A program made the position numbers and the translations under genes. Shown in pieces: positions 5,206 through 30,749 of a DNA stretch of 64,000 nucleotides. The DNA lies in NCBI GenBank assembly GCA_021513695.1, contig CP084166.1, forward strand, positions 832,001 through 896,000, in the 5' to 3' direction. The notes under the pieces are model-generated. The model did no database searches and had not been told where the DNA came from. It saw only the letters and a list, made by a program, of their open reading frames with translations. Source of the DNA: Candidatus Heimdallarchaeum aukensis. GTDB lineage: Archaea; Asgardarchaeota; Heimdallarchaeia; Heimdallarchaeales; Heimdallarchaeaceae. Position 1 is the first letter of the stretch, and every line of letters begins with the position of its first letter.

Positions 5206-5219
5206 AAAAATAAAAGTAA

Positions 5220-11950: not shown

Positions 11951-12016
11951 TTATCAACAAGAAATTCTACTGTATAAAAATTGTATGCTATATAATCAAA
12001 AAGAATAGAAAATAGA

Positions 12017-14575: not shown

Positions 14576-15064
14576 AAATAACCTCCAGGTTCGTGTTTTA
14601 TGCCTTTATTCTATTTGATTTATTTAATTTTTTCTAGTAGACAATAGCGATAAGCTTAAGACACAGTGCTAACTTTTGAAATTACAACAAAAAGAATAAG
14701 CTACAAGAAACACAAGCAAAATGAAATAAAATTAGGAAGAAGAACAGAAAAGACTTCCGAATGAAAAAAATATCTTTATAGAAGAAAATTAGGCATAAGC
14801 TATAATGAAAAAATATCTATGTGTGAAATGCTGATACTCTAGACAGATGATATAAGTATTCATTTTCTGAAATTACTCTTATAAACTATTTATACTATAA
14901 TATGTACTCTAGTTCTTTATACGATTAACTATTTGTCTGTCTTATTATAGAGGTGTTGAAAAGTTAAATAAACTATAAATTTATAGTAAGAAGTCGCCCT
15001 ATTTCAACAATAACAATTATATATAGATATTTAAAGGCTAACAAGAAAAGGAAATACTTAAACG

Positions 15065-16384: not shown

Positions 16385-16519
16385 TATATCTTTTTTTTGT
16401 CACTAACACATTCAATCACTTTTCTCAAAAATTATTGATGATTTTCATATTGTATCATCAAAAAACTTAAAATGCAAACTGTAAAGATATGATGGACATT
16501 AATAAAAATTGGTGATTTA

Positions 16520-17440
16520 ATGAAGATATTGGTAACTGGAGGACTTGGATTTATTGGAACAAATTTGTCAAAAGAATTACGCTCAAGAGGACATGACGTT
16601 ATCACAGCAGATATTTATCACTCTAAAGAATCAAAAAAAAGCCATATTAGGTGTGATATAGGCGAATATAGACAAATTGAAAGAATTTTTAAAGAACATG
16701 AAATTGATTTTGTATATAATTTAGCTGCTGAATATGGTCGTTGGAATGGAGAGGATTATTATGAACAACTGTGGAGAACAAACGTAGTAGGACTAAAAAA
16801 TATACTAAGACTTCAAAATGAATATAATTTTAGGTTAGTGCATTTCAGTAGTGCTGAAGTTTATGGAGACTATCGAGATGTCATGACTGAAGATGTAATG
16901 GATAAAGTTCCAATTAAACAAATGAATGATTATGCCATCTCAAAATGGGCAAACGAATTACAGTGTTTAAATGCAGCAGAAATGCACGGTAATGAAATAG
17001 TGCGGATTCGCCCAGTTAATTGTTATGGACCCCATGAAGAATATAGCCCTTATAGAGGTGTTATTCCAATATTAGTATATAGCGCTTTATTTAAGCAACC
17101 AGCTGTAGTATATAGCAAGCATAAAAGAATTTTTGATTATGTTTCAGACACAGTAAGAACCGTAGCTAATATAGTTGAAAACTTTATCCCTGGCGAAGTC
17201 TATAACATTGCAGCCAAGAAAGAAGTTACAATTAAGTATGTTTCTGATTTAATCCTTGAAGCAGTCGGTACTGACGACTCTCATATTACTTATAAAGAAG
17301 AAGAACCGTTTACAACTAAAGCTAAGAAAATCGATTGCTCAAAAGCTTATAAAGATCTAAATCATAGAATAGATGTACCAATTGAAAAAGGGATTCCTAT
17401 GTATGTTGATTGGATGAAGAAACATTATTCTATTAAATAA
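16520..17440 (+). CDS. NAD-dependent epimerase/dehydratase (SDR family)
   Basis: TGGLGFIG motif and YAISK catalytic motif. Confidence 0.75.
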   Translation: MKILVTGGLGFIGTNLSKELRSRGHDVITADIYHSKESKKSHIRCDIGEYRQIERIFKEHEIDFVYNLAAEYGRWNGEDYYEQLWRTNVVGLKNILRLQNEYNFRLVHFSSAEVYGDYRDVMTEDVMDKVPIKQMNDYAISKWANELQCLNAAEMHGNEIVRIRPVNCYGPHEEYSPYRGVIPILVYSALFKQPAVVYSKHKRIFDYVSDTVRTVANIVENFIPGEVYNIAAKKEVTIKYVSDLILEAVGTDDSHITYKEEEPFTTKAKKIDCSKAYKDLNHRIDVPIEKGIPMYVDWMKKHYSIK

Positions 17441-17453
17441 TACGTTAACGAGA

Positions 17454-18509
17454 GTGATTTCAATGGAAAAATACTTGGAGAGCTATAAAGATAAAAAAAT
17501 ATTAGTAACAGGAGGAGCAGGAGCCGTCGGTTCGTTTTTAGTGAAAAAATTACTAGAACTAGGTTCGTTTGTTATTGTTTTAGATAATCTCTCTTCTGGA
17601 TATGTATGGAATCTGCCTAATGATGGAAATTTATTATTTATTGAAGGTGATGTAACAAATGATATAGATCTTAAAAGAGTATTTAGTGAAGAACCAGAAA
17701 TAATTTTCCATCTAGCTGCATTTTTTGCAAATCAAAATTCTGTAGATTATCCTGAAACAGATCTAAATACTAACGGATTTGGAACCTTAAAACTGCTTGA
17801 GTATTCAAAAATCTATAATAAACTTAAACGATTCGTTTACGCTTCTTCAGGCTGTTCTATCTATCCTTCAGACGCAGAAATGCCCTATAAAGAAGAACTA
17901 ACTAATATGTATATGACTACACCGTACCAAATAACTAAAATGTTAGGTGAATTATATTGTAATTATTACTGGAAGATTCAAAAAGTTCCAGTTGTAAAGG
18001 CTAGATTCTTCAATTCTTTCGGACCTGGGGAAGTACCTGGACAATATAGAAACGTTATTCCAAATTTTATCTTTTGGGCTAAATTAGGTTTGTCTCTTCC
18101 TATTACAGGAACAGGTGAAGAAACTCGAGATTTTACCTATGTCGGGGATATAGTAGATGGATTATTAAGGATGGGCTATTTTGAAGAAGCAATAGGAGAA
18201 GAGATAAATCTAGCTGCTGGAAGAGAAGTAAAGATTTTGCATCTAGCTGAACTAGTAAATAAACTAGTTGGAAACGAAGCTGGGATTGAATTCAAGCCAA
18301 GACGCAAATGGGATACTAAATTAAGAATGTTAGCTTCTAATGAAAAAGCAAAAAAGATACTAGGATTTAACCCTAATCCGGACTTTGATGGCTGCTTGAA
18401 AAAAACAATCAAATGGTTTGAAGAAAATTGGGAAGATATTAAAAAATCAGCAGATTTTCCACCGGGGATGTCTTCTGCAGTAAGAAATAGGTCTGGAAAA
18501 TCTTCCTAA
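17454..18509 (+). CDS. NAD-dependent epimerase/dehydratase (UDP-glucuronate decarboxylase / 4,6-dehydratase-like SDR)
   Basis: TGGAGAVGSFL motif and YQITK catalytic motif. Confidence 0.75.
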   Translation: MISMEKYLESYKDKKILVTGGAGAVGSFLVKKLLELGSFVIVLDNLSSGYVWNLPNDGNLLFIEGDVTNDIDLKRVFSEEPEIIFHLAAFFANQNSVDYPETDLNTNGFGTLKLLEYSKIYNKLKRFVYASSGCSIYPSDAEMPYKEELTNMYMTTPYQITKMLGELYCNYYWKIQKVPVVKARFFNSFGPGEVPGQYRNVIPNFIFWAKLGLSLPITGTGEETRDFTYVGDIVDGLLRMGYFEEAIGEEINLAAGREVKILHLAELVNKLVGNEAGIEFKPRRKWDTKLRMLASNEKAKKILGFNPNPDFDGCLKKTIKWFEENWEDIKKSADFPPGMSSAVRNRSGKSS

Positions 18510-19115
18510 TTTATTTTTCTAAAAAATTTAATGTTAAACCTGTCATATTTGTCTACATTAAGGATATAAAATTGAAAAGAAGATATTACTAGGAGAAAAA
18601 TGTAAACGCAATCATGTTCAGTACACTTGTATTTAACAATCTAGTTTTGTAATTATTAAAGGACTTTGTGCAGTCGATCAAGAGTGATAATCACAGTAGT
18701 AGTAAAATCTTTTTCCTTGAAACTATTTTAGGACTCCAATTTATAGTTTATTCTTAAGATCTTATTTGATAGGAGTCAGTTTTACATTACTGTATTGGAT
18801 TAAGAATCTTTAATAGTCGATTACATTGTATTAAATTTAGATTTTCTGCTACTAAACACATACAATACTTTATAAAAATTTGAACTTCTTAATTGTATAC
18901 ACTCAAATTTCATCTTCTCTTTTGTTTCTCTTTTATAATCTTGACTTTAATTAATATATTTAATTAAAGGATTGTTGTTTTTGTTTAGAAATGTAACTTA
19001 AACTTTGGAATTAGGAAACTCATCTTGAATACAGTACAAAAGAATGATTTTTCAAGGGTAAATGATTAATCACAAAAAGACAAAAACTTAAAAATATCTT
19101 GTATATCCTTGCTCA

Positions 19116-21233
19116 ATGAAAATTAACCCTTTAAATAACCCTTTTCACATCATATATCTTTCAATTTCATTCTTAATAATGCTTGATGATATCCTTTTTC
19201 CAACTGCTTTTTCACAGTACTGTTATATTATTGGTTCAACATTCATAATGATATATGTCCTACTAATAGTTTCAAAAATCATTCAACAAAAATATATTAA
19301 TATTATATCAATTATTGTTTTAGAAGTAACTGCCAGTTTATTGAATTCATTAACATTGAAATATTATAGAATGAATGGGTTGATTATTCACAAATTATTT
19401 GAATTTTGGTTTTATCTTCCTCTTATGCTTGGTATGTTTTACATCAGCTATCATATATTACATGAACCTTTTCTCTCTTCAAAGTTTATTTTAGTAGTTA
19501 TATCTATTTTAGCAATATGGTTGAGAGTTTTACCACATATATCTTTTAGTTATCTTGTATTTGGTGATACATATTATCTATATAGTACAACTTTGGTTCA
19601 AGCTAATTTAATTGATTTGGCAAACCCTACCGAGTTATCATATTTTAAAGCGTTTTCAGGATATAATTATATCACAGCATGGCCATTTATGCTTTGGATA
19701 ACTTTTCTTGTAGCCAAAATTGGTTTCCCGCTTGAATTCTTCCTTGGTTATTTTACACCTGTTTTTTGTGGAAGTACAATTCCAGTACTCGGTTACAAAA
19801 TTTCAAAAAAAATCTTTAATGCGGTTTTCAAAAATAAAGATGTAGAGAGATTATCGCTATTTAATGCTTTAATTATATCAACAATTGGAGTAATAATATT
19901 TTTCACATTAGAACTGTCACATTTTGCTTTTGGTCTTGTTATTTTAATATTATCGCTAAAATTAATGCTAGAACCAAAAATTCTTTTAAAAAGCAAGTTT
20001 AAATATTTTTTAATGTTATCATTATCTTTCATCACTATTGTTAACCACGCAATTTTAGCTTTAGTAGACTTAGCAATATCTACAACTTGGATTGGATTAA
20101 TCTTAAAAACCAATACAAAAAATAAAAAAGAAAAATTATTGTTTCTGTTTCTATGGTTATTCAAACTCTTGTTTTTTGTTTTATTTTCATTTTCTTCTAA
20201 ACGATTGATTATCTTAATTAAAGCTTTTAATATAAACCCAAGTTCATTTATGATAACAGCTGTTCCAATAGCTACAATTCTCTTTTCTACTATTTTTTTA
20301 GTATTTATATATTACTTTTCTTCTATTGATATTTACAAAATACTAAATAGAAATATGAAATTTGCACGCTATATTCTAATAATCATCACAACTTTAAGTT
20401 TAATAGTCTATAATTCATTTTTCAATGTCAGAATCGTTGGAACAATGATAAAATTATTTTTTGTAATTGTTATAGGATTAAGCATTCTTTCAAATAATGG
20501 ATTTAAAGAAAAAACTGATGTTTTTACTATGAAATATCTTTTGTTTTCATTATTAGTAATTGGTTTTATTTCTATTGGTATAATATTTTTAGGGGTTATA
20601 GGTGGTAGTGGTATTGGTTTTTTCTTAAGATTTTTTACTATACTTACTATTATATCTGTTCCTATTTTTAGTGAAAAAATGTTCAGCATTTATATGAAAA
20701 ATCTGAAAGGTAAAGTTATAGTTTTATTAGTAACATCAATGATTGTTGTCAACAGTTATCCAATCAGTATGTTACATCCTTTTGATTGGCAATTTAGAGA
20801 TCAAATGTCATATGATTTAACAAATGATGATTTAAATATATTAGATAAGTTTGCAAGCATATACAAAAGTGAAAAAGAAGCAAATATTAATAAATCTATA
20901 ATGGTATTATCACATTATCCTGTAAATTATCAACTAATAAGAAATGGTATTAGTTTTATTGATGGAGATGCATATAAATTTCTGATATATTGGAGTCTTC
21001 AAACCAATGAAAATAATTCCAATAAAGTATATAAGATGATGTACAACCTTTTTAATATCCGCTACATCATATTCAATAAATATATTATAAAAAACCAAGT
21101 TTCTATTGATGAATATCAATTGTTTCTTGAACTTTATAATCTTTCAAATGGTTATAGAAAATTACTAGAAAGTAAAAATCTACTAATTGTGGAGATTATA
21201 CCTTATAGATATTCATATTTTAAACTTTATTAG
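19116..21233 (+). CDS. large polytopic membrane protein (705 aa) with C-terminal soluble domain; candidate GT-C glycosyltransferase or Wzy-like polymerase
   Basis: More than 12 predicted TM helices, then a ~170-aa hydrophilic C-terminus. No WWDYG (AglB/STT3) motif. Sits in a glycan locus. Confidence 0.5.
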   Translation: MKINPLNNPFHIIYLSISFLIMLDDILFPTAFSQYCYIIGSTFIMIYVLLIVSKIIQQKYINIISIIVLEVTASLLNSLTLKYYRMNGLIIHKLFEFWFYLPLMLGMFYISYHILHEPFLSSKFILVVISILAIWLRVLPHISFSYLVFGDTYYLYSTTLVQANLIDLANPTELSYFKAFSGYNYITAWPFMLWITFLVAKIGFPLEFFLGYFTPVFCGSTIPVLGYKISKKIFNAVFKNKDVERLSLFNALIISTIGVIIFFTLELSHFAFGLVILILSLKLMLEPKILLKSKFKYFLMLSLSFITIVNHAILALVDLAISTTWIGLILKTNTKNKKEKLLFLFLWLFKLLFFVLFSFSSKRLIILIKAFNINPSSFMITAVPIATILFSTIFLVFIYYFSSIDIYKILNRNMKFARYILIIITTLSLIVYNSFFNVRIVGTMIKLFFVIVIGLSILSNNGFKEKTDVFTMKYLLFSLLVIGFISIGIIFLGVIGGSGIGFFLRFFTILTIISVPIFSEKMFSIYMKNLKGKVIVLLVTSMIVVNSYPISMLHPFDWQFRDQMSYDLTNDDLNILDKFASIYKSEKEANINKSIMVLSHYPVNYQLIRNGISFIDGDAYKFLIYWSLQTNENNSNKVYKMMYNLFNIRYIIFNKYIIKNQVSIDEYQLFLELYNLSNGYRKLLESKNLLIVEIIPYRYSYFKLY

Positions 21234-21255
21234 AAATGAAGGATTGAGTAAGTTT

Positions 21256-22440
21256 ATGAGAATCGCATTTGTAACATTTGAATACCCACCATTTATAATC
21301 GGTGGAGCAGGAATTTATGCAGAAAATTTGACTAAAGAGTTAGCAAAGTTAGGTCATGAAGTTTATGTGTTTACTCCTTCAATTGAAAACGTAAAATGGA
21401 TGCATCATAATGAAGAAATAAAAAATCTACAAATAATAAATGTAAAAATAAATAACAAACTATCATTAAGAGCTCTTCAATTTTGGATACAAGTACCAAA
21501 ATACATCAAAAGAATTGAAAAGAAAAAGAAGTTCGATATAGTACACTTTAATAGTATGTCATATTGGTCTCTTAAAAATAAGTTAGTGAAAGCTCCTCAT
21601 GTAATAACCATTCATCATGTGGTCAGAAATGCCATACAAACAAACAATTTTGGCTTTATCTTTAGAATAAGAAGTATTAGTGGAGAAAATAACTTTATCA
21701 TCCCCTTTATCGAAGAGAGATGTGTTAAAAATGCTGACAGAATTATTGCAGTAAGCAATTTTACAAAAAATCAATTGATTAAAACTTATAGCATCACATC
21801 AAATAAGATTAAAGTAATTTATAATGGAATTAATTGGAATCAATTTGTTTTTACTGAAGATGATTTTGTAAAACTTAAAGAACAATACAATATCCCTAAT
21901 ACCCCTATTATTCTTTTTGTTGGGAGAGTAGATGATCCAAGAAAAGGTTTGGATTTCCTTCTCAAATCATTTAAGAATGTATTGAAAAAGATTAACGCTA
22001 CGTTACTTGTTGTAGGGAAAGAACAAGATGGTACAGCGAGAAAACTTACCGAATCATTAGGGATTTCTAAATCTGTAATTTTTACTGGGTTTATCGATGA
22101 AATGACCTTAAAGAAATGTTATAAACTATGCGATGTGTATGTATGTCCATCAAGGTTGGAAGGATTTGGCTTAACAATTCTGGAAGCAATGACTTTAGGA
22201 AAACCAATTATTGCAACAAGAACAGGAGCAATACCTGAGATAACACCAAATGGTATCTTAGTTAACGTTGATGATATAGAAGGATTATCAAATAGCATTT
22301 ACGAAATTCTTCAAGACAAAAAACAAGCAGAGAGATTAGGAGAACAAAATATAAAATATGTGAAAGAAAGATTTAGTTGGAAAAAAACTGCCAAAAAAAC
22401 AGAACAACTATATAAACAACTGATTGATATCCATTTCTAA
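21256..22440 (+). CDS. family-4 (GT-B) glycosyltransferase
   Basis: MRIAFVTFEYPPFIIGGAGIY N-terminus and a C-terminal E..G....EAMT.GKP.I motif. The start is moved to ATG 21256 to remove a 47-bp overlap with the upstream gene. Confidence 0.8.
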   Translation: MRIAFVTFEYPPFIIGGAGIYAENLTKELAKLGHEVYVFTPSIENVKWMHHNEEIKNLQIINVKINNKLSLRALQFWIQVPKYIKRIEKKKKFDIVHFNSMSYWSLKNKLVKAPHVITIHHVVRNAIQTNNFGFIFRIRSISGENNFIIPFIEERCVKNADRIIAVSNFTKNQLIKTYSITSNKIKVIYNGINWNQFVFTEDDFVKLKEQYNIPNTPIILFVGRVDDPRKGLDFLLKSFKNVLKKINATLLVVGKEQDGTARKLTESLGISKSVIFTGFIDEMTLKKCYKLCDVYVCPSRLEGFGLTILEAMTLGKPIIATRTGAIPEITPNGILVNVDDIEGLSNSIYEILQDKKQAERLGEQNIKYVKERFSWKKTAKKTEQLYKQLIDIHF

Positions 22441-22867
22441 TAATATATATAAATGACCGAAAAGGTTCAAGGAGGATCATGATATAAGAGTTTCGAACGC
22501 TCTAGTCTCAACGATCTCTTGAAAATAAATGTTAATAAACTATTCTGGATTAAAGAGTAAGGCCATCATCTATATCTTATAAGGTTAATAGTTGAACCCA
22601 TGTCTACCCAAGAGCAAAGTTCTACCATTTCTCTCAAAGAAAAGAATAAATAATAAATTTGCAAAAGAACGAATGAAATAACAAGGACAACCTCAACTAT
22701 CCTAACTGACAATAGTTCTTTCTTCTCCTTTGTTATATGAGGAAAATGCACTTTCTCCCATTGGTGTCATACTGAACTATAAAACACGTTAATCTCAAGT
22801 CTCTCATCCGAAACTTGTAGATACTATAAAGATTACATGGTATTATTATTCGTGAGATATAGAAACT

Positions 22868-23027
22868 AAGTCTAACTTACTGTATTTCCAATCTTTCTTT
22901 CTACTTCCTTATTACAATTTTGGTTTCCTAAACAGTCTATTAACTTCCTAACTTTTGGAGAAAAGTTTTCAAACCAACCTATGTTTTTGACACCCAAAAG
23001 TGTAACTCACATCTAGAGAGTGAACAA
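22868..23027 (+). repeat. ~165-bp non-coding element, copy A (paralog of 60350-60500)
   Basis: Aligns over about 160 bp at roughly 78% identity with copy B. Shared blocks include tctaac(t/c)tactgta, tacaatttt, cagtctattaacttcctaacttt, aaccaacc, gtttttgaca, caaaagtgtaac and tagagagtgaa. Lies between two convergent GT4 genes. Confidence 0.7.
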
Positions 23028-23053
23028 TGGTAAGAGTTGAACACTCAAGTGTC

Positions 23054-24196
23054 TCAGATGCAATCTTTGTATATCCTTTCTACTTTTTTTACAACGTTAC
23101 TCCAATCTAAATTCTTTTGAATATATTTTTTTCCTCTTTCGACCAACTCTCTACTTTTTTCAGAATTTTCAAGAACATATTTGATCATTTTCTCTAGGCC
23201 ATTAATATCTCCAAATTTAGTAAAATATCCACAATTAGCTTTCCTGATTATTTCTCCGCAATCATCTGTAACAATGACAGGAGTACCACATAATATTGAT
23301 TCTAATACAGTTATAGCTACTCCACCCATGTATTGAACAGTATGAATATATAAATCTGCATCTACATAGGCTGCTTTTTTATCTATTTCATCTAAATAAC
23401 CAACAAATTTAACTTGTTTACTTACTTTTAATTCAACAGTTAATTTTTCAAGTTTTTCTCTTTCTCCAGAATCTGGTCCTGCAATAACAAAATAAATTTT
23501 TTCATCAGTCTTTTTAGTAAAATTTGCAAATGCTTTTATCATGAAATTTATTCCTTTCAACTTATGTATGCGACCTAAATACAAAATCATTTTTCCATTT
23601 ATATTATATTTTTTCTTAAACTCACCATGTTTTGGTAAGTCATAGATAATATCTAAATCCATTCCATTATATATTAAAGAAATTTTACTTTTTTGTATAT
23701 TCATTTTAATTGCATTTTCCACTTCCTCATTTGAAACAGCAATAAATTTAGACATATCTCGTAGTATTTTATATCCCCAAAAAATATCGAACAACTTCTT
23801 CAATTTTTTATTCCCAATTGTTTGGGGAAGTGAATTATGAGATTGTATTATATATGGAATTCTAAACTTCTTAGAATATCTAGATACTATTATGTTTTGA
23901 TATGACCTTAACTCATGCATATGCACAACATCAAAATCTTTCAAGTGTTTCTTAAGCCAACCTCTCATTTTTGGAGAATATATAAAAAGATTAATGTTAA
24001 AATAGTAATTAAATGATAAGATATTAATTCCTAATTTTTTAAGTGAATTTGCATATTCTTCATCAAAATCAAAAGTTGTGGTGAGCACAGTTACTTCATG
24101 ATTGTTCATTGCTAAATGTTTTGAAAGATTATAACATACATTAACATCTCCACCTTTTTTTGGAGTAAAGTAAGGAATTACTTGAAGAATTTTCAT
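23054..24196 (-). CDS. family-4 (GT-B) glycosyltransferase
   Basis: MKILQVIPYFTPKKGGD N-terminus. C-terminal E-x7-E-like region GGVAITVLESILCGTPVI. Confidence 0.8.
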   Translation of the reverse strand: MKILQVIPYFTPKKGGDVNVCYNLSKHLAMNNHEVTVLTTTFDFDEEYANSLKKLGINILSFNYYFNINLFIYSPKMRGWLKKHLKDFDVVHMHELRSYQNIIVSRYSKKFRIPYIIQSHNSLPQTIGNKKLKKLFDIFWGYKILRDMSKFIAVSNEEVENAIKMNIQKSKISLIYNGMDLDIIYDLPKHGEFKKKYNINGKMILYLGRIHKLKGINFMIKAFANFTKKTDEKIYFVIAGPDSGEREKLEKLTVELKVSKQVKFVGYLDEIDKKAAYVDADLYIHTVQYMGGVAITVLESILCGTPVIVTDDCGEIIRKANCGYFTKFGDINGLEKMIKYVLENSEKSRELVERGKKYIQKNLDWSNVVKKVERIYKDCI

Positions 24197-24484
24197 TTAT
24201 TATAACACACAATTTATCAACATAGTGACCCATATATATTTTTCGTTACAATTTTTTGTATTTCCTTTTTCTTTATTGTTTTCAATTTTAAAATTGATAT
24301 CTGATGTGTGTGAAATATTATTACTTCATTTTAGGTTTTCTAGTTATAAGATAGAGAAGAATGTATGATACTATAATTGCTTATACTGTAACCTACTGAA
24401 GTTTATCAAAAATAGCTATTAGCACAGCTTTTCAAGAACTTTAAAATTGCAAAACTGAATGAATTTGATATCCTCTGCTATCTA

Positions 24485-25864
24485 TTGGAACTAGTTCAGT
24501 ATTATTTAAATAAGGACTATTTTTCTTTTGTATTGATGTCTTTAGATTCAGTGTTCAGTAATATTAAGGATTCAGTATCTGGAAAAAAAGTATCATTTAA
24601 GAGGTACATTTTTAATTTTTTTAATTCAATTATGATAAAAAATGGTATATATATTTTTCTTAGTATTTTTATTTCTTCTCCTCTAGATTTTATTTTCTGG
24701 CTACTTGCAGCGAGATACTATCTTCCTGAAGTAGTTGGAACAAATATGTCTGTAATTGGATTGATTACATTAGTTTCTCTCCTCTCAAGATTTGGTTTAG
24801 AAAATGGTTTAAAAAGGTTCATCCCCAAAGAATCCGATAAAGGTGCTACTAACTTAATAAACTTTAGTATTATCGTTCTTACCTTCATATCTATCCCTTT
24901 TTTTATAATATCAATTCTTAGTATATTATTTCTTATACGCGATTACCCTCAGTGGATTTATTCAATTCAAACCATCAATTTTTTATTTCTCTTATTCATT
25001 TCAATAAATATTGGAAATTTGTTTGATTCTATCTTAATTAGCCGTAGTAGAAGTAAATATACAGTTTGGAGATCGATCCTTGTAGGAATTTCAAAGATTT
25101 CATTCTTACCTCTTTGTTTCAAACTAGGAAATATTGGTATTTTGGTATGTTATAGTGTACCTGTGTTAATTATTTCATTGTTAATGAACTTGATATTCAT
25201 AAAGAAAGTTATTCCAAATTACAAGTTTGTCATAACTTTTAAATTAAAAAATAATGAAATGTTGGTTTATTCTTTTAAACACTGGATTTATCAGATATCT
25301 GCATATCTTAATGACAAAATTCTACCGACAATTGTTCTTTTAAGAATATCTGAAGAATATGCAGCATATTTTTCAATTGGATATATGATTGTTCTTATTT
25401 CATATTTCTTGCCAAAAGCAATTAGCTCTTCATTTCTAGTGGAAGTAGTAAGGAATCCTTCTTCCATAAAACAAAATTTCTTTATGGCAACACTATTTAA
25501 TTGGATAATTTTAGGCTTTGTTCTTGTTCTTTTTAGTGTTTTTGGTAAACTCTTTCTTGGGTTTTTTGGGACAAATTACAAGATTGTTTACCTTTTTACA
25601 GTTATTGGTCTTTTATCATCATTTCCATATGCTTTTAATGAGATGTATTTTAACTATTGTAAAATTAAAAATAAACTGAAAATAGTTATATTCCTAAATA
25701 CACTATATACCATTTTTGTTTTAATAGGATCAGCAATATTATCTCCAATTTATGGATTAGAAGCAATAAGTCTCCTTATGTTAGTAGGTAATATAATGGT
25801 GTCTGTGTCTATATTCTTTTTAGTTAGAAAAGAAATATCTCTATTATTACTCAAAAATTCATAA
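24485..25864 (+). CDS. polysaccharide biosynthesis protein, Wzx-like flippase (MOP superfamily)
   Basis: About 12-14 TM helices, ~460 aa. Typical oligosaccharide-unit flippase architecture. Confidence 0.55.
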   Translation: MELVQYYLNKDYFSFVLMSLDSVFSNIKDSVSGKKVSFKRYIFNFFNSIMIKNGIYIFLSIFISSPLDFIFWLLAARYYLPEVVGTNMSVIGLITLVSLLSRFGLENGLKRFIPKESDKGATNLINFSIIVLTFISIPFFIISILSILFLIRDYPQWIYSIQTINFLFLLFISINIGNLFDSILISRSRSKYTVWRSILVGISKISFLPLCFKLGNIGILVCYSVPVLIISLLMNLIFIKKVIPNYKFVITFKLKNNEMLVYSFKHWIYQISAYLNDKILPTIVLLRISEEYAAYFSIGYMIVLISYFLPKAISSSFLVEVVRNPSSIKQNFFMATLFNWIILGFVLVLFSVFGKLFLGFFGTNYKIVYLFTVIGLLSSFPYAFNEMYFNYCKIKNKLKIVIFLNTLYTIFVLIGSAILSPIYGLEAISLLMLVGNIMVSVSIFFLVRKEISLLLLKNS

Positions 25865-25896
25865 AATTTATGTGAAAAAAATCTGTTACTATTAAT

Positions 25897-26778
25897 TCAA
25901 ACAAAGGGGAATTCATCAATTTTAATTTTGCTAACGTGTTTAATAATATACTCACGCTGTTCTTTAGTAAATATTTTTTCAAATTTATTTCGCTTTTTGT
26001 TTTCTATTTTCTCATTTACTGATTTCTTCCAAGGTTCATTAGTTAAAACAATATTTTTTACCTTTTCTTTGTAATCTGTAACCATTTTTTCAGAGAAACT
26101 AATACCAAGAAAGTTACATATGTCTCTTAAAGTCTTTGATGGTTGTGTCGTTAATCTGTCATAGCTTGTGAAAATGTGATTTTCATGATTAATATATTTC
26201 TTGCTAAATAAGATTGCTTTTTTCCACTTATTAATACACTGGTCAATAGTATATCCTCCTTCCCATATTTCAGGAAATTTTGATGAAACATCGTATAGAG
26301 ATGAAACAACATCACAACCATCTCTTATTAAATGAATAAACCTTGAATTTTTTACTAATTTATCAATGTAGTCAACATAAAAAAGATGATCTGGAGTTTT
26401 TTCAACCCAAGCTAATTTGTGATTATCAAGTGTATATTCATCCAGTAGTTTGACAAAATATTTTGTGTATTGCTTTATTGTATATAAATTTCCTAAAGTA
26501 TCCCTATTATTGTTCAATTTTAAACTATCTTGAAATTCTTGTAATCTCTTCTTTGCTCGTGGGTGACCTAATGTCACATTTAGAAAGAAATTGTTTCCTA
26601 ATATGTTTCTCACGAACTTTGGGGAGATAACATAAGGAATTTTAGGTAGTAAGTAAATAAAGAAATGTGATTCAGGAAATGAAATAATATCTTCATGTGC
26701 TGCTAATAATGACTGTAAGAGGGTTGTACCTGACCTAGGGCAGCCAACAAGGAATATCCTTGATTTAATTTCATTCAT
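25897..26778 (-). CDS. PAPS-dependent sulfotransferase (paralog 1)
   Basis: 5'-PSB loop GCPRSGTTLL and 3'-PB motif IRDGCDVVSS. Confidence 0.75.
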   Translation of the reverse strand: MNEIKSRIFLVGCPRSGTTLLQSLLAAHEDIISFPESHFFIYLLPKIPYVISPKFVRNILGNNFFLNVTLGHPRAKKRLQEFQDSLKLNNNRDTLGNLYTIKQYTKYFVKLLDEYTLDNHKLAWVEKTPDHLFYVDYIDKLVKNSRFIHLIRDGCDVVSSLYDVSSKFPEIWEGGYTIDQCINKWKKAILFSKKYINHENHIFTSYDRLTTQPSKTLRDICNFLGISFSEKMVTDYKEKVKNIVLTNEPWKKSVNEKIENKKRNKFEKIFTKEQREYIIKHVSKIKIDEFPFV

Positions 26779-27356
26779 ATATGGCTTGTATTGTTTTCCT
26801 TAAAATGTTTTTTTATAGAAACAGATGTTAGTACTCAACTAATATTGGTAATAGGAAAATATTGCAAATTTATTCAACTTTGTTAATTCTGAAAAAAGAA
26901 TTATTTAGGAATTTATTTACATTCATCTTTTAGTATTAAACGCTTTGATTGCATTTTATTACTGCATGTAGTCTGCCACCTGGTAACAGTATCTTCAGTT
27001 TCAGCTCTTGTTCTTCTGATAAAAATAGGATTAAGAAGTAATTTGCTATTAAAATAACATACTAGAACTGATTGCAATGTTTAATTATCCAGAAGGAAAA
27101 GACTACATTATTGCTTCTTCTCTTATGCGAATATAGTAGATTTCTTAGCTGTGGTCTGTATTACTAAATATGAACTACTTTTAGTATGCCATTCTCATTT
27201 ATTTATTAGTCAAAATAGAATTTTTGTACTTTTTCTTATTCATATATTCTGTCCATATTATAAATTAATAAGTCTTAATAGAAGATTCTATGATCTCTAT
27301 AATCTTGTGTTTCAAATGTTTTTAGCTGATATTATCGAAAAACAAAATATGAACAT

Positions 27357-28577
27357 TTAATCACAAGGATCCATTTCACATTTTTTGAGATATTGTTTTC
27401 TTAAACTTTCTAGACTATAAATAAATTTGTTTACTATACTATCCCAATCATAGCTTGATACAAAATTCAAACCTTTTTCACTAATCTTATCTTTAAGATC
27501 TAATGTTTCATTAACAACAGAATAAACATCTGTTGGTTTATCAATATACAAGATTCCATTGTTTTCTCCGAATTCTTTGTATACACCTTTTAGCTTTGTA
27601 CAAATAACAGGATTTCCAGCAGCTAAATATTCATACAGTTTAATAGGAACTATATTTTCCATAATTTCGTTTTTATGTGCGGGTAATAAATAGTAATCTG
27701 CTGCTTGTAAATATATTGGTATGTCTTTGAATGGAACCTGTCCAGTCAATATTATTTTCTCTGGATTTTTTAGCTCTTTTCTTTTTATTGAGATATAATC
27801 GAATAAATCTCCTTTACCGACAATCAATAACTTATATTTGTCTAAATCATCTTCATTTTTAACCATGTAATCTGTTAATTCTTTTAATCCTGAGAATTCA
27901 TATAACCAACCCATGAACATTAATACTATATCATCTTTCACAATTCCTAATCTTTTTCGAATTTGCTCTCTTTGAACTTTTGAGGAATATTTTTTAAGAT
28001 CAACACCGCCTGGTATATATACACCTTTTTCCAGATTAGCCCCCATACTCACAGAGTAATCCAGTAAACCATGATTTATTACATATATTTTATCACAATT
28101 TTTAAGAGTTCTTTTTTCAAAGGCTTTGGCAACATATTGGAGCGGTTTAACAGGAAGTAGAGTATGTAAATGATCAATTAAATAATAAATAAAAGGAATT
28201 TTATAAATTTTTGATAGTTTCTGGCCTATAAAACTGTTTAATATCCCAAACCCAATAATGAAATCTGGCTGAAATTGCTTTATCTCTTTATAAATATAAA
28301 TAAAATGCATTATAGGGATCGATAAAAAGCTTAACAATGGTATTTTTATCATTCCTGGTCTTATTAGTTCAATATTTGCTTCTGAAATAATCTTTGGTGT
28401 AGCCTTAGATTTTTTTGTAGGCTCAAATATTCTCTTAGATTGCTTTTCTTTCCATAAAAAGTCATAGTCAATAACTTTGACTTCATGCCCTAAAACGCTT
28501 AATCTTTCCATTAGATGGTGTTGTTGATGAGGGCCTCTTAGTTCCCAATCTGTTTCTTGAAGAACTAGTATTTTCAT
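27357..28577 (-). CDS. family-4 (GT-B) glycosyltransferase
   Basis: Two-Rossmann-domain glycosyltransferase with E..AG.PVI-like C-terminal motif (YEYLAAGNPVI). The start is set at internal ATG 28577 (MKILVLQ...). Confidence 0.7.
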   Translation of the reverse strand: MKILVLQETDWELRGPHQQHHLMERLSVLGHEVKVIDYDFLWKEKQSKRIFEPTKKSKATPKIISEANIELIRPGMIKIPLLSFLSIPIMHFIYIYKEIKQFQPDFIIGFGILNSFIGQKLSKIYKIPFIYYLIDHLHTLLPVKPLQYVAKAFEKRTLKNCDKIYVINHGLLDYSVSMGANLEKGVYIPGGVDLKKYSSKVQREQIRKRLGIVKDDIVLMFMGWLYEFSGLKELTDYMVKNEDDLDKYKLLIVGKGDLFDYISIKRKELKNPEKIILTGQVPFKDIPIYLQAADYYLLPAHKNEIMENIVPIKLYEYLAAGNPVICTKLKGVYKEFGENNGILYIDKPTDVYSVVNETLDLKDKISEKGLNFVSSYDWDSIVNKFIYSLESLRKQYLKKCEMDPCD

Positions 28578-28699
28578 ATTATCCTTTCCTATGTCTAAAC
28601 TTGATAAGAAAAAATCACTTATTAGTTTAACGTTTGAGATAAGAAATATGAAATTATTCATTATGTATTATGTAAATGAAAGTTCCGAAATTTATTCAT

Positions 28700-28715
28700 G
28701 GTAGTGTCTAGTTTT
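28700..28715. repeat. IS left terminal inverted repeat
   Basis: GGTAGTGTCTAGTTTT is the exact reverse complement of 29447-29462. It resembles the IS26-type IR GGCACTGTTGCAAA (GGxAxTGT). Confidence 0.7.
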
Positions 28716-28755
28716 CTTCCGACAAAAATATTTGTGGGGACTCTAATAGTAAGAT

Positions 28756-29454
28756 ATGAAAACACAAAAACTATCTGCTCTTTTTAAGAGATGCAGAGTC
28801 CCCAAAAAAATAATAATAAAAGCGATTTATGAATATATTGATTCAAAGAATGGGTTGAGGACAGTAGCATGGAAGAATGGTTTAACGCATCAAACATTAT
28901 GGTATTGGGTAAAGAAGTTCAGGCTCTTTAGGGAAAGTTTACATAGAGTTGTAGCAGAGAGAGGGGGAATACCAGAGATTATAGTAGTAGATGAAACAGA
29001 GATTAGGACCTCTCAAGGCTCAATATATCTGTGGTTCGCGTTAGATCCTTACAACAAGACTTTACTGGGTTTTAGTATTACTAAAGGACGGAGTAATCTT
29101 GAATGTTTACTAACTTTCCGTTATTGGTTCAAATGTTGGGGTTTTAAGCCCCGTATTGTCGTTACAGATGCAGGAGTATGGTATCCTGTCTTACTTCGTC
29201 TCGGTATCAAAATCTCCGTTATCAAAGGTGGTTTACGCTCCTATATTGAACGTTTTAATGCTACTCTTAAGAGTTATCGTTGGTTTCATTCTATTCTCCA
29301 CTGCACTTGTCCTATCCGTGCCGTCTATGGCTCTACTCATCTTTCTGGTTTTCTTACTCTCTTTATGCTCCATTATAATTTCGTTCGTCCTCATCAGAGC
29401 TTGGGACATCCTCCCCTTAGTTCCTTTTTACCTAGGAGGTGGTATAAAAACTAG
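28756..29454 (+). CDS. IS6-family DDE transposase
   Basis: VVDETEIRTSQGSIYLWFALDPYNKTLLGFSITKGRSN parallels the IS26 DETYVKVNGRWAYLYRAVD...DFYLS block. VVTDAGVWYP parallels TDKAPAY. ERFNATLK parallels the conserved ERxNxxLK. Confidence 0.65.
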   Translation: MKTQKLSALFKRCRVPKKIIIKAIYEYIDSKNGLRTVAWKNGLTHQTLWYWVKKFRLFRESLHRVVAERGGIPEIIVVDETEIRTSQGSIYLWFALDPYNKTLLGFSITKGRSNLECLLTFRYWFKCWGFKPRIVVTDAGVWYPVLLRLGIKISVIKGGLRSYIERFNATLKSYRWFHSILHCTCPIRAVYGSTHLSGFLTLFMLHYNFVRPHQSLGHPPLSSFLPRRWYKN

Positions 29455-29462
29455 ACACTACC
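29447..29462. repeat. IS right terminal inverted repeat
   Basis: AAAACTAGACACTACC. It overlaps the 3' end of the transposase ORF. Confidence 0.7.
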
Positions 29463-29477
29463 GATACCAATATAGTA

Positions 29478-29493
29478 ATACTTTAAAAAGGAT
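29478..29493 (+). promoter_or_regulatory. TATA-like box (ctttaaaaagg) about 25 nt upstream of the GT2 start codon, between the IS end and the gene
   Basis: A/T-rich TATA-like hexamer at archaeal promoter spacing. This implies a leaderless or short-leader transcript. Confidence 0.3.
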
Positions 29494-29511
29494 TAATTTG
29501 AAGTTGTAGTA

Positions 29512-30684
29512 ATGGAAAACAATATATTAAAAAGGATAGGTATATTCAGTTCAGCTTTCTCTCTCTTATTAATTGCAGTTATAGTTTTTAGTTTTGTAAT
29601 AAGAAAAATAATTCTAATGATAATTATTTGGTTTAATAGAATATTTGAATCCTCAAGAATTCCAATATTGAGTATTTTCATAATATCACTAACCATACTT
29701 TTAACTTTTGGAATAATCATATTTATCTTAGGAGAGTTTTATGATTTTTTTTTCCGTAAATATCCAAGTCTTTTATTAGATAAAAAAGAATATTCATTAA
29801 CTGAAAGTGATAAAAAGAAAATTTCTGTAATAATACCTGCATACAATGAAGAGAAAACTATAGAGAAAGCAATAAAAAGCGTAAAACCTTATTGTAACAA
29901 TATTATTGTTGTAAATGATGGCTCTACTGATGATACAGCAGCTATAGCTCAAAAAAATGATGTTGTTTTAATTAATCACAAATTAAATATGGGATTAGGA
30001 ACATCTTTAAGAGACGGAATTAACAAAGCAATAGATCTTAACTCAGAAATTATTATTAATTTTGATGCAGATTTGCAGTATGTAGCTGAAGAGATAGAAT
30101 ACATGGTCTATTATATTATTCATGAAAAATATGATTTAATTATGGGATCTAGGCTTAAGGGTAAAATCGAAAAAATGTCGTTAATAAAAAAGTTTGGAAA
30201 TAAATTATATACAAGATTGTTGAGATACTTAACTCGATTAGGGATTTCAGACGGACAAACAGGTTTTAGGGCATTTACTTCTGATTTTGCAAGAAAAATA
30301 ATGATTCGTGGTGATTATACTTATACTCAAGAAATGATTTTAGAAGCAGCTGCTTGCAAAGCAAAAATAGGAGAAGTACCTATAAGCTTTAACAAAAGAA
30401 AATATGGTAAATCGCGTTTAATGAGAAACCCTTTACACTTTGCAACTTCAAGTGGTATTTTCATATTAAAAGTCCTAATAGATCTAAATCCCTTAAAAAT
30501 ATACACATTGTTTTCTGTGTTTCTATTTCTTACAGGATTTTTTGTTGGAGGGACTGAAATACTAGATTGGTTAATTACCTCTACGTTAACAAATCCAAGT
30601 TTGATTATTCTTGGAATAATAATAATGATGACAGCTTTAATAATAAATAGCATTGCTTTGTTATTTGCTTCAACAAAGAGGTGA
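29512..30684 (+). CDS. family-2 glycosyltransferase with GtrB/DPM1-like architecture (polyprenyl-phosphate sugar synthase-like)
   Basis: N-terminal TM region. GT2 core ISVIIPAYNEE...VVNDGSTDDT with DAD (DxD) motif. Two C-terminal TM helices. Confidence 0.75.
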   Translation: MENNILKRIGIFSSAFSLLLIAVIVFSFVIRKIILMIIIWFNRIFESSRIPILSIFIISLTILLTFGIIIFILGEFYDFFFRKYPSLLLDKKEYSLTESDKKKISVIIPAYNEEKTIEKAIKSVKPYCNNIIVVNDGSTDDTAAIAQKNDVVLINHKLNMGLGTSLRDGINKAIDLNSEIIINFDADLQYVAEEIEYMVYYIIHEKYDLIMGSRLKGKIEKMSLIKKFGNKLYTRLLRYLTRLGISDGQTGFRAFTSDFARKIMIRGDYTYTQEMILEAAACKAKIGEVPISFNKRKYGKSRLMRNPLHFATSSGIFILKVLIDLNPLKIYTLFSVFLFLTGFFVGGTEILDWLITSTLTNPSLIILGIIIMMTALIINSIALLFASTKR

Positions 30685-30749
30685 TAGTAAATTACTTTGT
30701 AACTCTTCCTAAATGGAAATCATTCTTGAACTTAAGAGGTTATACATAT

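What the first reader, a model, noticed from the sequence alone, without database searches (positions are those of the whole stretch)
28700..29511. GC-rich IS6-family element without target-site duplication, inserted 49 bp upstream of a GtrB-like GT2 gene
The element has perfect 16-bp TIRs (GGTAGTGTCTAGTTTT / AAAACTAGACACTACC) and an IS6-like DDE transposase. Its base composition differs visibly from the ~28% GC host DNA, which suggests recent horizontal acquisition. The 8-bp flanks (ttattcat versus gataccaa) are not duplicated. For IS6 elements this pattern usually means cointegrate formation or IS-mediated rearrangement or deletion of adjacent DNA. The element lies in the divergent promoter region between a GT4 gene and the GT2-GT4 operon. 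A TATA-like box remains between the IS and the ATG, so expression may be retained or altered.
Basis: partly seen in the sequence, partly recalled or inferred. Interest (0 to 1): 0.5.

Follow-up and report, generated by a model that had tools for sequence, protein, structure and literature searches.

The report
Archaeal IS6-like element at rearrangement junction
This is an intact copy of a small jumping gene (a divergent archaeal IS6-type insertion sequence) in the Asgard archaeon Candidatus Heimdallarchaeum aukensis, sitting where a 15-kb strain-specific block of sugar-coat genes was joined to a conserved glycosyltransferase gene; it is a tidy but ordinary example of an insertion sequence reshaping a variable surface-glycan locus.

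Summary
Window 28700-29462 is a 763-bp element with perfect 16-bp terminal inverted repeats. It has one 232-aa DDE transposase ORF and 38.3% GC against 28.1% in the rest of the window. It has no target-site duplication, and it ends 49 bp before a GT2 gene.

The window is Ca. Heimdallarchaeum aukensis; the transposase is UJG41544.1.

The protein falls below the curated IS6 thresholds. Even so, its full length aligns with relatives that pass them (hhalign E 5.6e-41), and its ends carry the IS6 GG/TGT signature. It is a divergent archaeal-type IS6-like element.

Eleven other copies of this lineage carry 9-10 bp duplications, not 8 bp. These include all seven intact copies in H. endolithica. The bare flanks of this young, intact copy are therefore meaningful.

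Synteny explains them. In H. endolithica and another relative, an NTP-transferase gene lies directly beside the GT2 gene. Here about 16 kb lies between them. A truncated IS5-like remnant bounds this stretch on the left, and this IS bounds it on the right.

The IS marks a rearrangement junction. The conserved TATA box of GT2 survives 19 bp beyond the IS end.

Verdict: a new member of a known kind, of modest interest.

The parts
28700..29462 (+). Complete IS6-like insertion sequence, 763 bp, 38.3% GC
   Evidence: Boundaries are set by perfect inverted repeats. The element is 98.7-98.8% identical over its full length to three copies in H. endolithica PR6.
28700..28715 (+). Left terminal inverted repeat, GGTAGTGTCTAGTTTT
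   Evidence: It starts with GG and has TGT at positions 6-8, as in the IS6 end consensus described in PMC7986276 and PMC6807381. It is conserved in 40+ related loci.
29447..29462 (+). Right terminal inverted repeat, AAAACTAGACACTACC
   Evidence: Logan contig L012 begins exactly here.
28756..29454 (+). Transposase gene, 232 aa. It has N-terminal helix-turn-helix helices and an RNase-H-like DDE core (D79, D138, E165, K172). It is identical to UJG41544.1 / K9W45_03535.
   Evidence: ORF. Invariant residues. AlphaFold model has pLDDT 88.5, and its fold matches retroviral integrases and transposases. hhalign against IS6-scoring relatives gives E 5.6e-41. Identity to P0416.
28723..28732 (+). A/T-rich box (aaaaatattt) about 25-30 nt upstream of the transposase ATG. 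It is a candidate archaeal TATA box for a near-leaderless transposase mRNA. This is an inference.
   Evidence: Read from the sequence. The box is conserved in the alignment of 14 copies. No archaeal promoter tool was available.
28735..28804 (+). Conserved stem-loop enclosing the transposase start codon. The arms are 28735-28744 and 28795-28804.
   Evidence: RNA fold gives -22.3 kcal/mol, z = -4.77. The outer helix is 91% paired across 14 copies, with one covarying pair (UA 7, CG 5, UG 2).
28690..28699 (.). Left flank, atttattcat. It is not repeated on the right.
29463..29472 (.). Right flank, gataccaata. It is not repeated on the left.
29482..29489 (+). TATA box (TTTAAAAA) of the GT2 gene. It lies 19 bp beyond the IS end and 22 bp before the ATG.
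   Evidence: The same (A)AAT-TTTAAAWA motif lies upstream of the GT2 orthologues in L015, L063 and L064.
29512..30684 (+). Conserved GT2 glycosyltransferase with membrane-spanning ends. It is followed by a GT4 gene at 30681-31943.
   Evidence: Pfam PF00535, 89 bits. It is 100% identical to the H. aukensis protein P0018 and about 60% identical to orthologues across Heimdallarchaeia. The GT2-GT4 pair recurs in L063, L064, L066 and L067.
27357..28661 (-). GT4 glycosyltransferase, the last gene of the lineage-specific block. Its true start is probably Met29 at 28577.
   Evidence: Pfam. Homologues are 390-405 aa and cover about 90% of the ORF. The nearest is 68% identical, and none of the best 120 listed homologues comes from H. 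endolithica.
13721..28699 (.). About 15-kb block of glycan-synthesis genes lying between NTP-transferase and GT2. Relatives have no such block here. It encodes a GT2, UDP-GlcNAc 2-epimerase, two NAD epimerase/dehydratases, a 705-aa protein with no Pfam match, three GT4s, a flippase-type protein and a sulfotransferase.
   Evidence: Gene content. Nucleotide and protein synteny with PR6 (L015) and L063.
13351..13720 (+). Truncated, decayed 5' part of a second, IS5-family-like insertion sequence at the left edge of the block
   Evidence: It is 75% identical to L019 541-907. There a 263-aa ORF hits IS5 NF033579 (E 6.5e-19) and Pfam DDE_Tnp_1. The sharp shared terminus GCATGTCCAAAAATTAAT also appears in L033 and L054.
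12017..13024 (-). NTP-transferase gene, with an epimerase gene at 10979-11950. In relatives this gene is the immediate divergent neighbour of GT2.
   Evidence: It is 92.8% identical in protein to the PR6 gene at L015 8799-9806, which lies 194 nt from PR6's GT2. L063 has the same adjacency, and L064/L065 keep a remnant.

Best explanation
Window 28700-29462 is an intact, probably still mobile copy of a Heimdallarchaeia-restricted, archaeal-type IS6-like insertion sequence. It encodes one DDE transposase between 16-bp GG...TGT inverted repeats. Elsewhere this lineage makes 9-10 bp target duplications.

This copy has no duplication because its two flanks were not neighbours before the IS was involved. 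It lies at a rearrangement junction in a hypervariable glycan-synthesis locus. There, about 16 kb of lineage-specific DNA was joined to the conserved GT2-GT4 genes.

The join was most likely made in one of two ways. One is homologous recombination between two copies of the IS; H. aukensis has at least 10 copies. The other is an IS6-style replicative intramolecular event that deleted adjacent DNA.

The breakpoint falls 19 bp upstream of the conserved GT2 TATA box. GT2 has therefore probably kept its core promoter and lost whatever lay further upstream.

Shown: the anatomy, the homology, the duplication length in sister copies, the synteny break and the conserved TATA box. Inferred: which event made the junction, that the element is active, and the effect on expression.
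For: Anatomy.

Family placement:
- IS6 is the best NCBIfam hit.
- A profile search of 1.84 billion representatives found 240 clusters.
- All 56 full-length relatives hit the IS6 model NF033587, and 51 of 56 hit Pfam DDE_Tnp_IS240.
- Three of the nearest relatives exceed the 125-bit IS6 cut-off.
- hhalign against these relatives gives probability 100% and E 5.6e-41 over residues 8-222.
- D79, D138 and E165 are conserved, and K lies at E+7.
- The high-confidence model shows an HTH followed by an RNase-H fold.

Duplication census: 11 copies carry duplications of 9-10 bp (12 bp with one mismatch in L004). These include all seven intact PR6 copies. Copies without a duplication are mostly degraded or lie on short metagenome contigs.

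Youth of this copy: it is 98.7-98.8% identical to PR6 copies, while the genomes share 88% ANI.

Partners for recombination: at least nine other full-length variants are annotated in H. aukensis.

Synteny:
- PR6 L015 is collinear with window 3107-13025, and then again inside GT2 at 29684-30513.
- NTP-transferase and GT2 are adjacent in PR6 and in L063.
- The extra block ends in a truncated IS5-like remnant on the left and in this IS on the right.

Other points: no second copy or fragment of the IS lies in the window. The TATA box is conserved in orthologues.
Against: - No empty site and no reciprocal junction could be found. The intergenic DNA is too diverged from H. endolithica to align.
- The order of events is therefore unknown: block arrival, IS insertion, then deletion or recombination.
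- The GT2-side flank could itself be the altered one.
- The transposase fails the curated family cut-offs.
- The 9-10 bp duplication differs from the canonical 8 bp of IS6.
- The H. aukensis genome was built by scaffolding Illumina contigs with Nanopore reads from amplified DNA. The join across the IS therefore rests on long reads that I could not inspect.
Confidence: 0.6

Rival explanations
1. Cassette import using the IS as a homology arm. A DNA segment from another Heimdallarchaeum strain carried the 15-kb glycan block next to its own copy of this IS. It replaced the resident DNA by a double crossover, one crossover in the conserved NTP-transferase/epimerase side and the other inside the IS. 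The IS then keeps the recipient's right flank and gains the donor's left flank, so it has no duplication.
For: - There is only one IS copy, and it lies exactly at the border between variable and conserved DNA.
- IS copies are 98.7-98.8% identical between two species that share 88% ANI, so they offer better homology than the surrounding genome.
- Other copies lie at the edges of this same locus in relatives. L034 has one next to the NTP-transferase gene. L003 lies where homology with the window ends.
Against: - No donor configuration was found. The nearest GT4 homologue is only 68% identical.
- The truncated IS5-like remnant on the left suggests that illegitimate or IS-mediated events, not clean homologous exchange, shaped that border.
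- DNA uptake and recombination in these uncultured archaea are uncharacterised.
Confidence: 0.2
2. Simple insertion whose duplication was later erased. The IS inserted normally into an existing GT4-GT2 intergenic region. A small later deletion or a run of mutations beside one end removed one copy of the 9-10 bp repeat.
For: - The two spacers add up to a plausible intergenic length: 122 nt to the likely GT4 start and 49 nt to GT2.
- Several related copies also lack duplications.
Against: - At most 1 of 10 flank positions agree, and no offset up to 5 nt restores a repeat.
- The IS itself is young and intact, so point decay is implausible.
- All seven intact PR6 copies keep perfect repeats.
- A small flanking deletion is itself an IS-associated rearrangement.
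Confidence: 0.12
3. Scaffolding artefact. The left flank of one IS copy and the right flank of another were joined across the repeat during assembly of the H. aukensis genome.
For: - The genome was assembled with SPAdes from 150-bp paired reads. It was then scaffolded with LRScaf using Nanopore reads from multiple-displacement-amplified DNA.
- Short-read contigs break at both ends of this IS.
Against: - The 39-kb short-read contig that ends in the left IS end already contains the NTP-transferase gene and the block.
- The next contig carries GT2 in the same order and orientation as in H. endolithica.
- Synteny resumes further right at 57.1-60.1 kb.
- A random mis-join would not recreate this collinearity.
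- Both sides encode glycan-synthesis genes.
Confidence: 0.05
4. Classification rival. The element is not a true IS6 family member. It belongs to a separate archaeal family of small rve-type DDE elements. IS6-specific behaviour (obligate cointegrates, 8-bp repeats) should then not be assumed.
For: - It scores below the cut-offs: IS6 48 bits against 125, DDE_Tnp_IS240 14.5 bits against 27.
- The IS3 model covers the whole catalytic core (41.7 bits), and there are rve/rve_3 hits on the C-terminal HYNFVRPHQSLG motif.
- D138 to E165 is 27 residues.
- The duplications are 9-10 bp.
- Harmer and Hall argue that archaeal 'IS6' elements should not be in the IS6/IS26 family (PMC6807381).
Against: - ISfinder's authors keep the archaeal clades in IS6 (PMC7986276).
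- Every full-length relative hits the IS6 model best, and some pass it.
- The profile-profile alignment is full length.
- The inverted repeats have the GG and TGT signature.
- ISH15 and ISPfu5 are listed with 9-bp repeats.
Confidence: 0.3

Closest known systems
Archaeal IS6-family elements in ISfinder (for example ISPfu1/2/5, ISC774, ISSte1, ISH14/ISH15)
   Same: - Size: these elements are 696-853 bp with a 211-237 aa transposase; this one is 763 bp and 232 aa.
- A single ORF fills the element.
- The protein has an N-terminal HTH and a DDE core with K seven residues after E.
- The inverted repeats are about 16 bp; here they begin GG, with G at position 7.
- A 9-bp duplication is recorded for ISH15 and ISPfu5.
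- Relatives reached by profile search hit the IS6 and ISC774 models.
   Different: - The protein itself scores only 48 bits on the IS6 model and 31.5 bits on the ISC774 model.
- Duplications are 9-10 bp in all 11 informative copies, not mostly 8 bp.
- So far it has been found only in Heimdallarchaeia genomes and hydrothermal-sediment metagenomes.
- I could not check whether it is listed in ISfinder.
IS26 / IS257 (bacterial IS6 family)
   Same: - Small single-gene DDE elements with GG...TGT ends.
- Copies without flanking duplications at rearrangement junctions are the classic signature of their replicative or recombinational activity (PMC7986276).
- They can sit just upstream of genes and alter expression.
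   Different: - Harmer and Hall report that archaeal and bacterial IS6 transposases share no more than 25% identity.
- IS26 lacks the C-terminal YNxxRPH motif (from my own knowledge of the IS26 sequence, not tested here).
- IS26 makes 8-bp duplications.
- The cointegrate and translocatable-unit mechanisms are shown only for the bacterial members.
IS3 / IS481 (rve-type) transposases
   Same: The catalytic core aligns with the IS3 model (residues 75-218, 41.7 bits) and weakly with IS481. There are Pfam rve and rve_3 hits. The fold matches retroviral integrases.
   Different: There is no two-ORF frameshift organisation. The ends are GG, not TG...CA. The element is far shorter. Scores are far below the cut-offs of 160 and 224 bits.
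IS elements at the borders of variable surface-polysaccharide loci in bacteria (O-antigen and capsule clusters)
   Same: An IS and an IS remnant lie at the edges of a strain-specific cassette of glycosyltransferase, epimerase and flippase genes. The cassette is flanked by conserved genes.
   Different: The host is an Asgard archaeon, and the glycan made is unknown. The comparison rests on general knowledge, not on a test done here.

Membership tests
IS6 family (ISfinder sense) | Element of about 700-900 bp with a single transposase ORF of about 210-255 aa filling it | tested here: met
   763 bp; ORF 28756-29454, 232 aa. The ranges come from PMC7986276 and PMC6807381.
IS6 family (ISfinder sense) | Transposase with an N-terminal helix-turn-helix and a DDE catalytic triad followed by K/R | tested here: met
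   D79, D138 and E165 are invariant or nearly so across 56 relatives, and K172 lies at E+7. The model shows helices 17-70 followed by an RNase-H-like beta/alpha core. The fold matches DDE integrases and transposases.
IS6 family (ISfinder sense) | Short (14-20 bp) terminal inverted repeats beginning GG, with a conserved TGT / G at position 7 | tested here: met
   GGTAGTGTCTAGTTTT: G1, G2, T6, G7, T8. The two repeats are a perfect 16/16 match. The consensus is described.
IS6 family (ISfinder sense) | 8-bp target-site duplication | tested here: not met
   Eleven related copies carry duplications: six of 9 bp, four of 10 bp and one imperfect 12 bp; none is 8 bp. ISfinder lists 9 bp for ISH15 and ISPfu5, so this deviation has a precedent among archaeal members. 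The window copy has none.
IS6 family (ISfinder sense) | Sequence score above the curated family thresholds (NCBIfam NF033587 at 125 bits; Pfam PF13610 at 27 bits) | tested here: not met
   48.1 bits and 14.5 bits. By transitive homology the picture is different. All 56 relatives hit NF033587, three of the ten nearest pass 125 bits, and hhalign gives E 5.6e-41 over the full length.
IS6 family (ISfinder sense) | Transposition by replicative cointegrate formation without a dedicated resolvase | not testable with these tools
   Only indirect hints exist. This copy and a direct pair of degraded copies in PR6 (L009/L010) lack duplications. The element has no second gene.
Archaeal IS6-like group (Harmer and Hall 2019) | Catalytic signature E--F---K-R in place of the bacterial E-DH---K | tested here: inconclusive
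   The window protein has E165-R-F167-NATL-K172-SY-R175. F and R are each shifted by one position relative to the published pattern. The relatives' consensus is ERxxxxLKxR.
IS3 family | Two overlapping ORFs with programmed frameshift, TG...CA ends, 3-5 bp duplications, score of 160 bits or more | tested here: not met
   Single ORF, GG ends, 9-10 bp duplications, 41.7 bits.
IS481 family | Element of about 1-1.3 kb with a transposase of about 300+ aa (from general knowledge); NCBIfam NF033577 score of 224 bits or more | tested here: not met
   26 bits; 232 aa.

The most novel reading that the evidence does not exclude
Near-identical copies of this IS, shared between co-occurring Heimdallarchaeum species, act as portable homology arms. 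Whole surface-glycan gene cassettes are swapped between strains through them, in an archaeal counterpart of bacterial O-antigen or capsule switching. On this reading, the duplication-free IS at 28700-29462 is the crossover scar of such an import.
Probability: 0.2. Interest if true: 0.55.

Novelty: new member of a known kind. Interest (0 to 1): 0.25.

Why it matters
For genome annotation, a gene now labelled 'hypothetical protein' / 'DDE domain-containing protein' (K9W45_03535) can be named as the transposase of a Heimdallarchaeia-specific, archaeal-type IS6-like element with 16-bp ends and 9-10 bp duplications.

For Asgard biology, it is a concrete case of insertion sequences marking the edges of a strain-specific glycan-synthesis cassette. 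The same element is almost identical in two species. This bears on how these archaea vary their cell surface and exchange DNA.

It does not reveal a new kind of element or mechanism.

Tried and rejected
- Empty site in H. endolithica: the orthologous region was found (L015), but only GT2 and the genes left of 13025 are conserved. The intergenic DNA does not align, so no empty site could be defined.
- Other copies in H. aukensis: the genome is absent from the genome-contig collection (only PR6 was returned). It is also absent from the gene-position index, which returned only Logan contigs. Reciprocal flanks could therefore not be searched genome-wide.
- Reciprocal flanks among the copies at hand: 22 copies were compared in all pairs. 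The only hit was the L004/L005 coincidence.
- Partner flank sequences in the window: searches for GATACCAATA and ATTTATTCAT found no informative second site.
- A second copy, solo end or fragment of the IS in the window: none was found by blastn or tblastn. The two 13/16 matches to the inverted repeat, at 2751 and 7184, are at chance level.
- Donor of the block: the nearest GT4 homologue is 68% identical, so no donor context exists.
- Structure search: PDB hits are generic DDE integrases with no IS6 structure to compare. The afdb50 library was unavailable.
- Rfam on 12900-14000: nothing found.
- The sigma-70 promoter scanner was not used because the host is an archaeon.
- The similarity of the window's left flank (tattcat) to the L001 duplication (aagtattcat) was considered. 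I rejected it as chance, because the L001 flanks have no other homology to the window.
Full report
**1. What is there**

The sequence at 28700-29462 is a 763-bp element.
- It is bounded by a perfect 16-bp inverted repeat: GGTAGTGTCTAGTTTT at 28700-28715, and its reverse complement at 29447-29462. These are the only perfect matches in the 64-kb window. Allowing three mismatches, 0.55 matches are expected by chance.
- One ORF (28756-29454, + strand, 232 aa) fills it.
- Its GC content is 38.3%, against 28.1% for the rest of the window. It is the most GC-rich 763-bp stretch in the window.
- The element ends 49 bp before the ATG of a GT2 glycosyltransferase gene (29512-30684). A GT4 gene follows at 30681-31943.
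- On the other side lies a divergently oriented GT4 gene (27357-28661). Its homologues are 390-405 aa, so its true start is probably Met29 at 28577, 122 nt from the IS.
- The flanks (...aaatttattcat | gataccaatata...) share no direct repeat at 8, 9 or 10 bp. They share none with the ends shifted by up to 5 nt either.

**2. Source and copy number**

- The GT2 and GT4 proteins are 100% identical to proteins of Candidatus Heimdallarchaeum aukensis, a 3.08-Mb chromosome.
- The transposase is identical to UJG41544.1 (K9W45_03535), annotated 'hypothetical protein' / 'DDE domain-containing protein'.
- At least nine other distinct full-length 232-aa variants are annotated in H. aukensis, so the genome holds at least 10 copies.
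- The sister species H. endolithica PR6 holds 11 copies. Three of them are 98.7-98.8% identical to this one in nucleotides.
- The two genomes share only 88% ANI (Wu et al. 2022, PMC8813620). The orthologous genes next to this locus are 84-93% identical.
- The IS is thus much more alike between the species than their genomes are. Together with its high GC, this fits recent exchange or recent invasion from a common source.
- Wu et al. counted 11 transposase/integrase families with up to 27 copies, but did not characterise this element.

**3. Family**

Taken alone, the protein does not pass any curated threshold.
- Pfam gives rve_3 at 24.9 bits, rve at 22.5 bits and DDE_Tnp_IS240 (the IS6 domain) at only 14.5 bits.
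- NCBIfam ranks IS6 first, at 48.1 bits against a cut-off of 125, and aligns only residues 10-146. IS3 comes next, at 41.7 bits over residues 75-218.

Transitive evidence places it with IS6.
- A profile of the close family was searched against 1.84 billion representative proteins. It found 240 clusters, many of them 220-250 aa and aligned end to end.
- All 56 full-length relatives hit the IS6 model (best E 1.2e-51). 51 of 56 hit DDE_Tnp_IS240.
- Three of the ten nearest relatives exceed the 125-bit IS6 cut-off.
- A profile-profile comparison with five of these relatives gives probability 100% and E 5.6e-41 over residues 8-222. That span includes the E165 region and the C-terminal YNxxRxH motif.
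- D79, D138 and E165 are conserved, with K at E+7.
- An AlphaFold model (pLDDT 88.5) shows N-terminal HTH helices and an RNase-H-like core. Its best PDB matches are retroviral integrases, TnsB, IstA and ISCth4. This is the generic DDE fold, and no IS6 structure is available for comparison.
- The inverted repeats carry the IS6 hallmarks: GG at the tip and TGT at positions 6-8.

I conclude that it is a divergent member of the archaeal-type IS6-like group. Whether that group belongs in IS6 is disputed. Harmer and Hall say no (PMC6807381). Varani et al. say probably yes (PMC7986276).

**4. Duplication length in this lineage**

I located both ends and flanks of 22 copies, from PR6 and from 47 metagenome loci.
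- Eleven copies carry perfect or near-perfect direct repeats. Six are 9 bp, four are 10 bp and one is an imperfect 12 bp. None is 8 bp.
- All seven intact PR6 copies have a duplication.
- Copies without one are degraded (L007, L009, L010 and others) or sit on 1-2 kb metagenome contigs that may be chimeric.

A young, intact copy without a duplication, as here, is therefore the exception and needs an explanation. Point decay is excluded, because at most 1 of 10 flank positions agree.

**5. What the synteny shows**

- In H. endolithica (L015), the GT2 orthologue (60% identical) is the divergent neighbour of an NTP-transferase gene, 194 nt away, with an epimerase gene behind it.
- The same NTP-transferase | GT2 adjacency occurs in another Heimdallarchaeaceae contig (L063). 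A remnant of it occurs in L064/L065.
- In the window, the orthologues of the epimerase and the NTP-transferase (78.5% and 92.8% protein identity) lie at 10979-11950 and 12017-13024.
- Nucleotide homology with PR6 runs collinearly from 3107 to exactly 13025. It resumes only inside GT2 at 29684.
- Between them lie about 16 kb that have no PR6 counterpart.
- This stretch encodes a full set of glycan-synthesis genes: a GT2, UDP-GlcNAc 2-epimerase, two NAD-dependent epimerase/dehydratases, a 705-aa protein with no Pfam match, three GT4s, a Polysacc_synt flippase-type protein and a sulfotransferase.
- The right edge of this stretch is the IS.
- Near the left edge, 13351-13720 is a truncated, decayed 5' part of a different insertion sequence. 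It is 75% identical to a segment of L019 whose 263-aa ORF hits IS5-family and DDE_Tnp_1 models. It shares a sharp terminus (GCATGTCCAAAAATTAAT) with L019, L033 and L054.

The lineage-specific block is thus bracketed by IS-derived DNA on both sides. The duplication-free IS lies exactly at a synteny breakpoint.

**6. Mechanism**

The most economical reading is that the two flanks of this IS were brought together by an IS-mediated event. Possible events are:
- homologous recombination between two directly oriented copies, which deletes what lay between them;
- an IS6-style replicative intramolecular transposition, which deletes adjacent DNA;
- import of the block by recombination, using the IS as one homology arm.

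I cannot tell these apart. No second copy, solo end or fragment of the IS lies in the window. No partner of either flank sequence lies there either.

**7. Assembly artefact?**

The concern is real.
- The H. aukensis genome is a SPAdes short-read assembly scaffolded with Nanopore reads from amplified DNA.
- Short-read contigs break at both ends of this IS.

Several facts argue against a mis-join.
- The 39-kb contig that ends in the left IS end already contains the NTP-transferase gene and the block.
- The next contig carries GT2 in the same order and orientation as in PR6.
- Collinearity with PR6 reappears at 57.1-60.1 kb.

A random mis-join would not reproduce this. I rate the artefact at about 5%.

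**8. Effect on neighbours**

- The box TTTAAAAA at 29482-29489 lies 19 bp beyond the IS and 22 bp before the GT2 ATG.
- The same (A)AAT-TTTAAAWA motif precedes the GT2 orthologues in L015, L063 and L064.
- The core promoter is therefore probably intact, and the transcript is probably near-leaderless. This is an inference; no archaeal promoter tool or expression data were available.
- Any upstream regulatory DNA has been replaced by the IS.
- The IS end itself carries TATAAAAA (29443-29450) facing outward. That is a possible additional promoter, and it is untested.

**9. Comparison and verdict**

The element works like, and is most closely related to, the archaeal IS6-family elements ISPfu1/2/5, ISC774 and ISH14/15. 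It differs from them in its 9-10 bp duplication, its sub-threshold sequence scores, and a distribution so far limited to Heimdallarchaeia and hydrothermal-sediment metagenomes.

It is a new member of a known kind. The context adds some interest for Asgard genome dynamics: an IS and an IS remnant bracket a strain-specific glycan cassette, and the IS copies are nearly identical across species. There is nothing categorically new here. Interest 0.25.

Noticed in passing
window 13351-13720: A truncated, decayed 5' part (about 370 bp) of an IS5-family-like insertion sequence lies in the 813-nt non-coding stretch upstream of the NTP-transferase gene. It marks the left edge of the lineage-specific glycan block. 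The full-length relative in L019 encodes a 263-aa DDE_Tnp_1 transposase.
   Followed up: yes
L033 1348-1460; L054 369-465: In two metagenome contigs the IS6-like element is inserted into the IS5-like element, at positions homologous to window 13449/13450 and to about 13425-13432. Nested insertions of the two IS types therefore recur.
   Followed up: partly
window 28735-28804: A conserved 10-bp stem (GGGGACUCU... / ...AGAGUCCCC) encloses the transposase start codon and the first 13 or so codons. The fold has z = -4.77. The stem is 91% paired across 14 copies and has one compensatory pair (UA/CG). It may be a translational control hairpin of the kind known in other insertion sequences.
   Followed up: partly
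window 29443-29450: An outward-facing TATA-like box (TATAAAAA) overlaps the last transposase codons and the inner edge of the right inverted repeat. It could drive transcription into whatever lies to the right of any copy, here the GT2 gene.
   Followed up: no
L012 1-16 compared with L013/L014 1-30: Short-read contigs include 30 nt of the IS at the left junction, as expected for k = 31, but only the 16-nt inverted repeat at the right junction. This could mean a branch at base 29446, for example A against G (a K or E transposase variant), or an inverted copy in part of the population. It is unexplained.
   Followed up: partly
L004 2934-2945 and 3708-3719; L005 2937-2945 and 3708-3716 (H. endolithica): Two copies about 15 kb apart in opposite orientation have nearly the same target repeat. 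L005 has atttgcaat. L004 has an imperfect 12-bp repeat, (t/a)tttgcaatagt. There is no homology beyond about 10 nt on either side. This may be a target preference around the palindrome TTGCAA, or chance.
   Followed up: partly
L009 and L010 (H. endolithica CP084167.1, about 2.9796-2.9856 Mb): Two degraded copies lie in direct orientation about 4.5 kb apart. Neither has a duplication, and the outer flanks share no repeat. This may be the remnant of an IS6-type pseudo-compound transposon. The metagenome contig L031 has nearly the same flanks as L009.
   Followed up: partly
L034 1258-1574; L003 2945-3707 compared with window 60061: Other copies of the same IS sit at the edges of this glycan region in relatives. 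One lies just downstream of the NTP-transferase gene in a contig 91.6% identical to the window. One in H. endolithica, with an intact 9-bp repeat, lies exactly where homology to the window (57063-60061) stops.
   Followed up: partly
window 27357-28661: The GT4 ORF is probably annotated 28 codons too long. Homologues are 390-405 aa and begin at the MKILVLQE motif, so the likely start is Met29 at 28577.
   Followed up: partly
whole window: The 10-mer GATACCAATA, allowing one mismatch, occurs 22 times against 6.2 expected. No shuffle out of 100 reached that number. The matches are scattered across the window on both strands, slightly more on the minus strand. The cause is unknown, perhaps a codon-level motif.
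   Followed up: no
window about 37006 (end of Logan contig L012): The short-read contig that starts at the IS ends about 7.5 kb further on, near the start of the ORF at 36782-38962. This suggests another repeat or a coverage break there.
   Followed up: no
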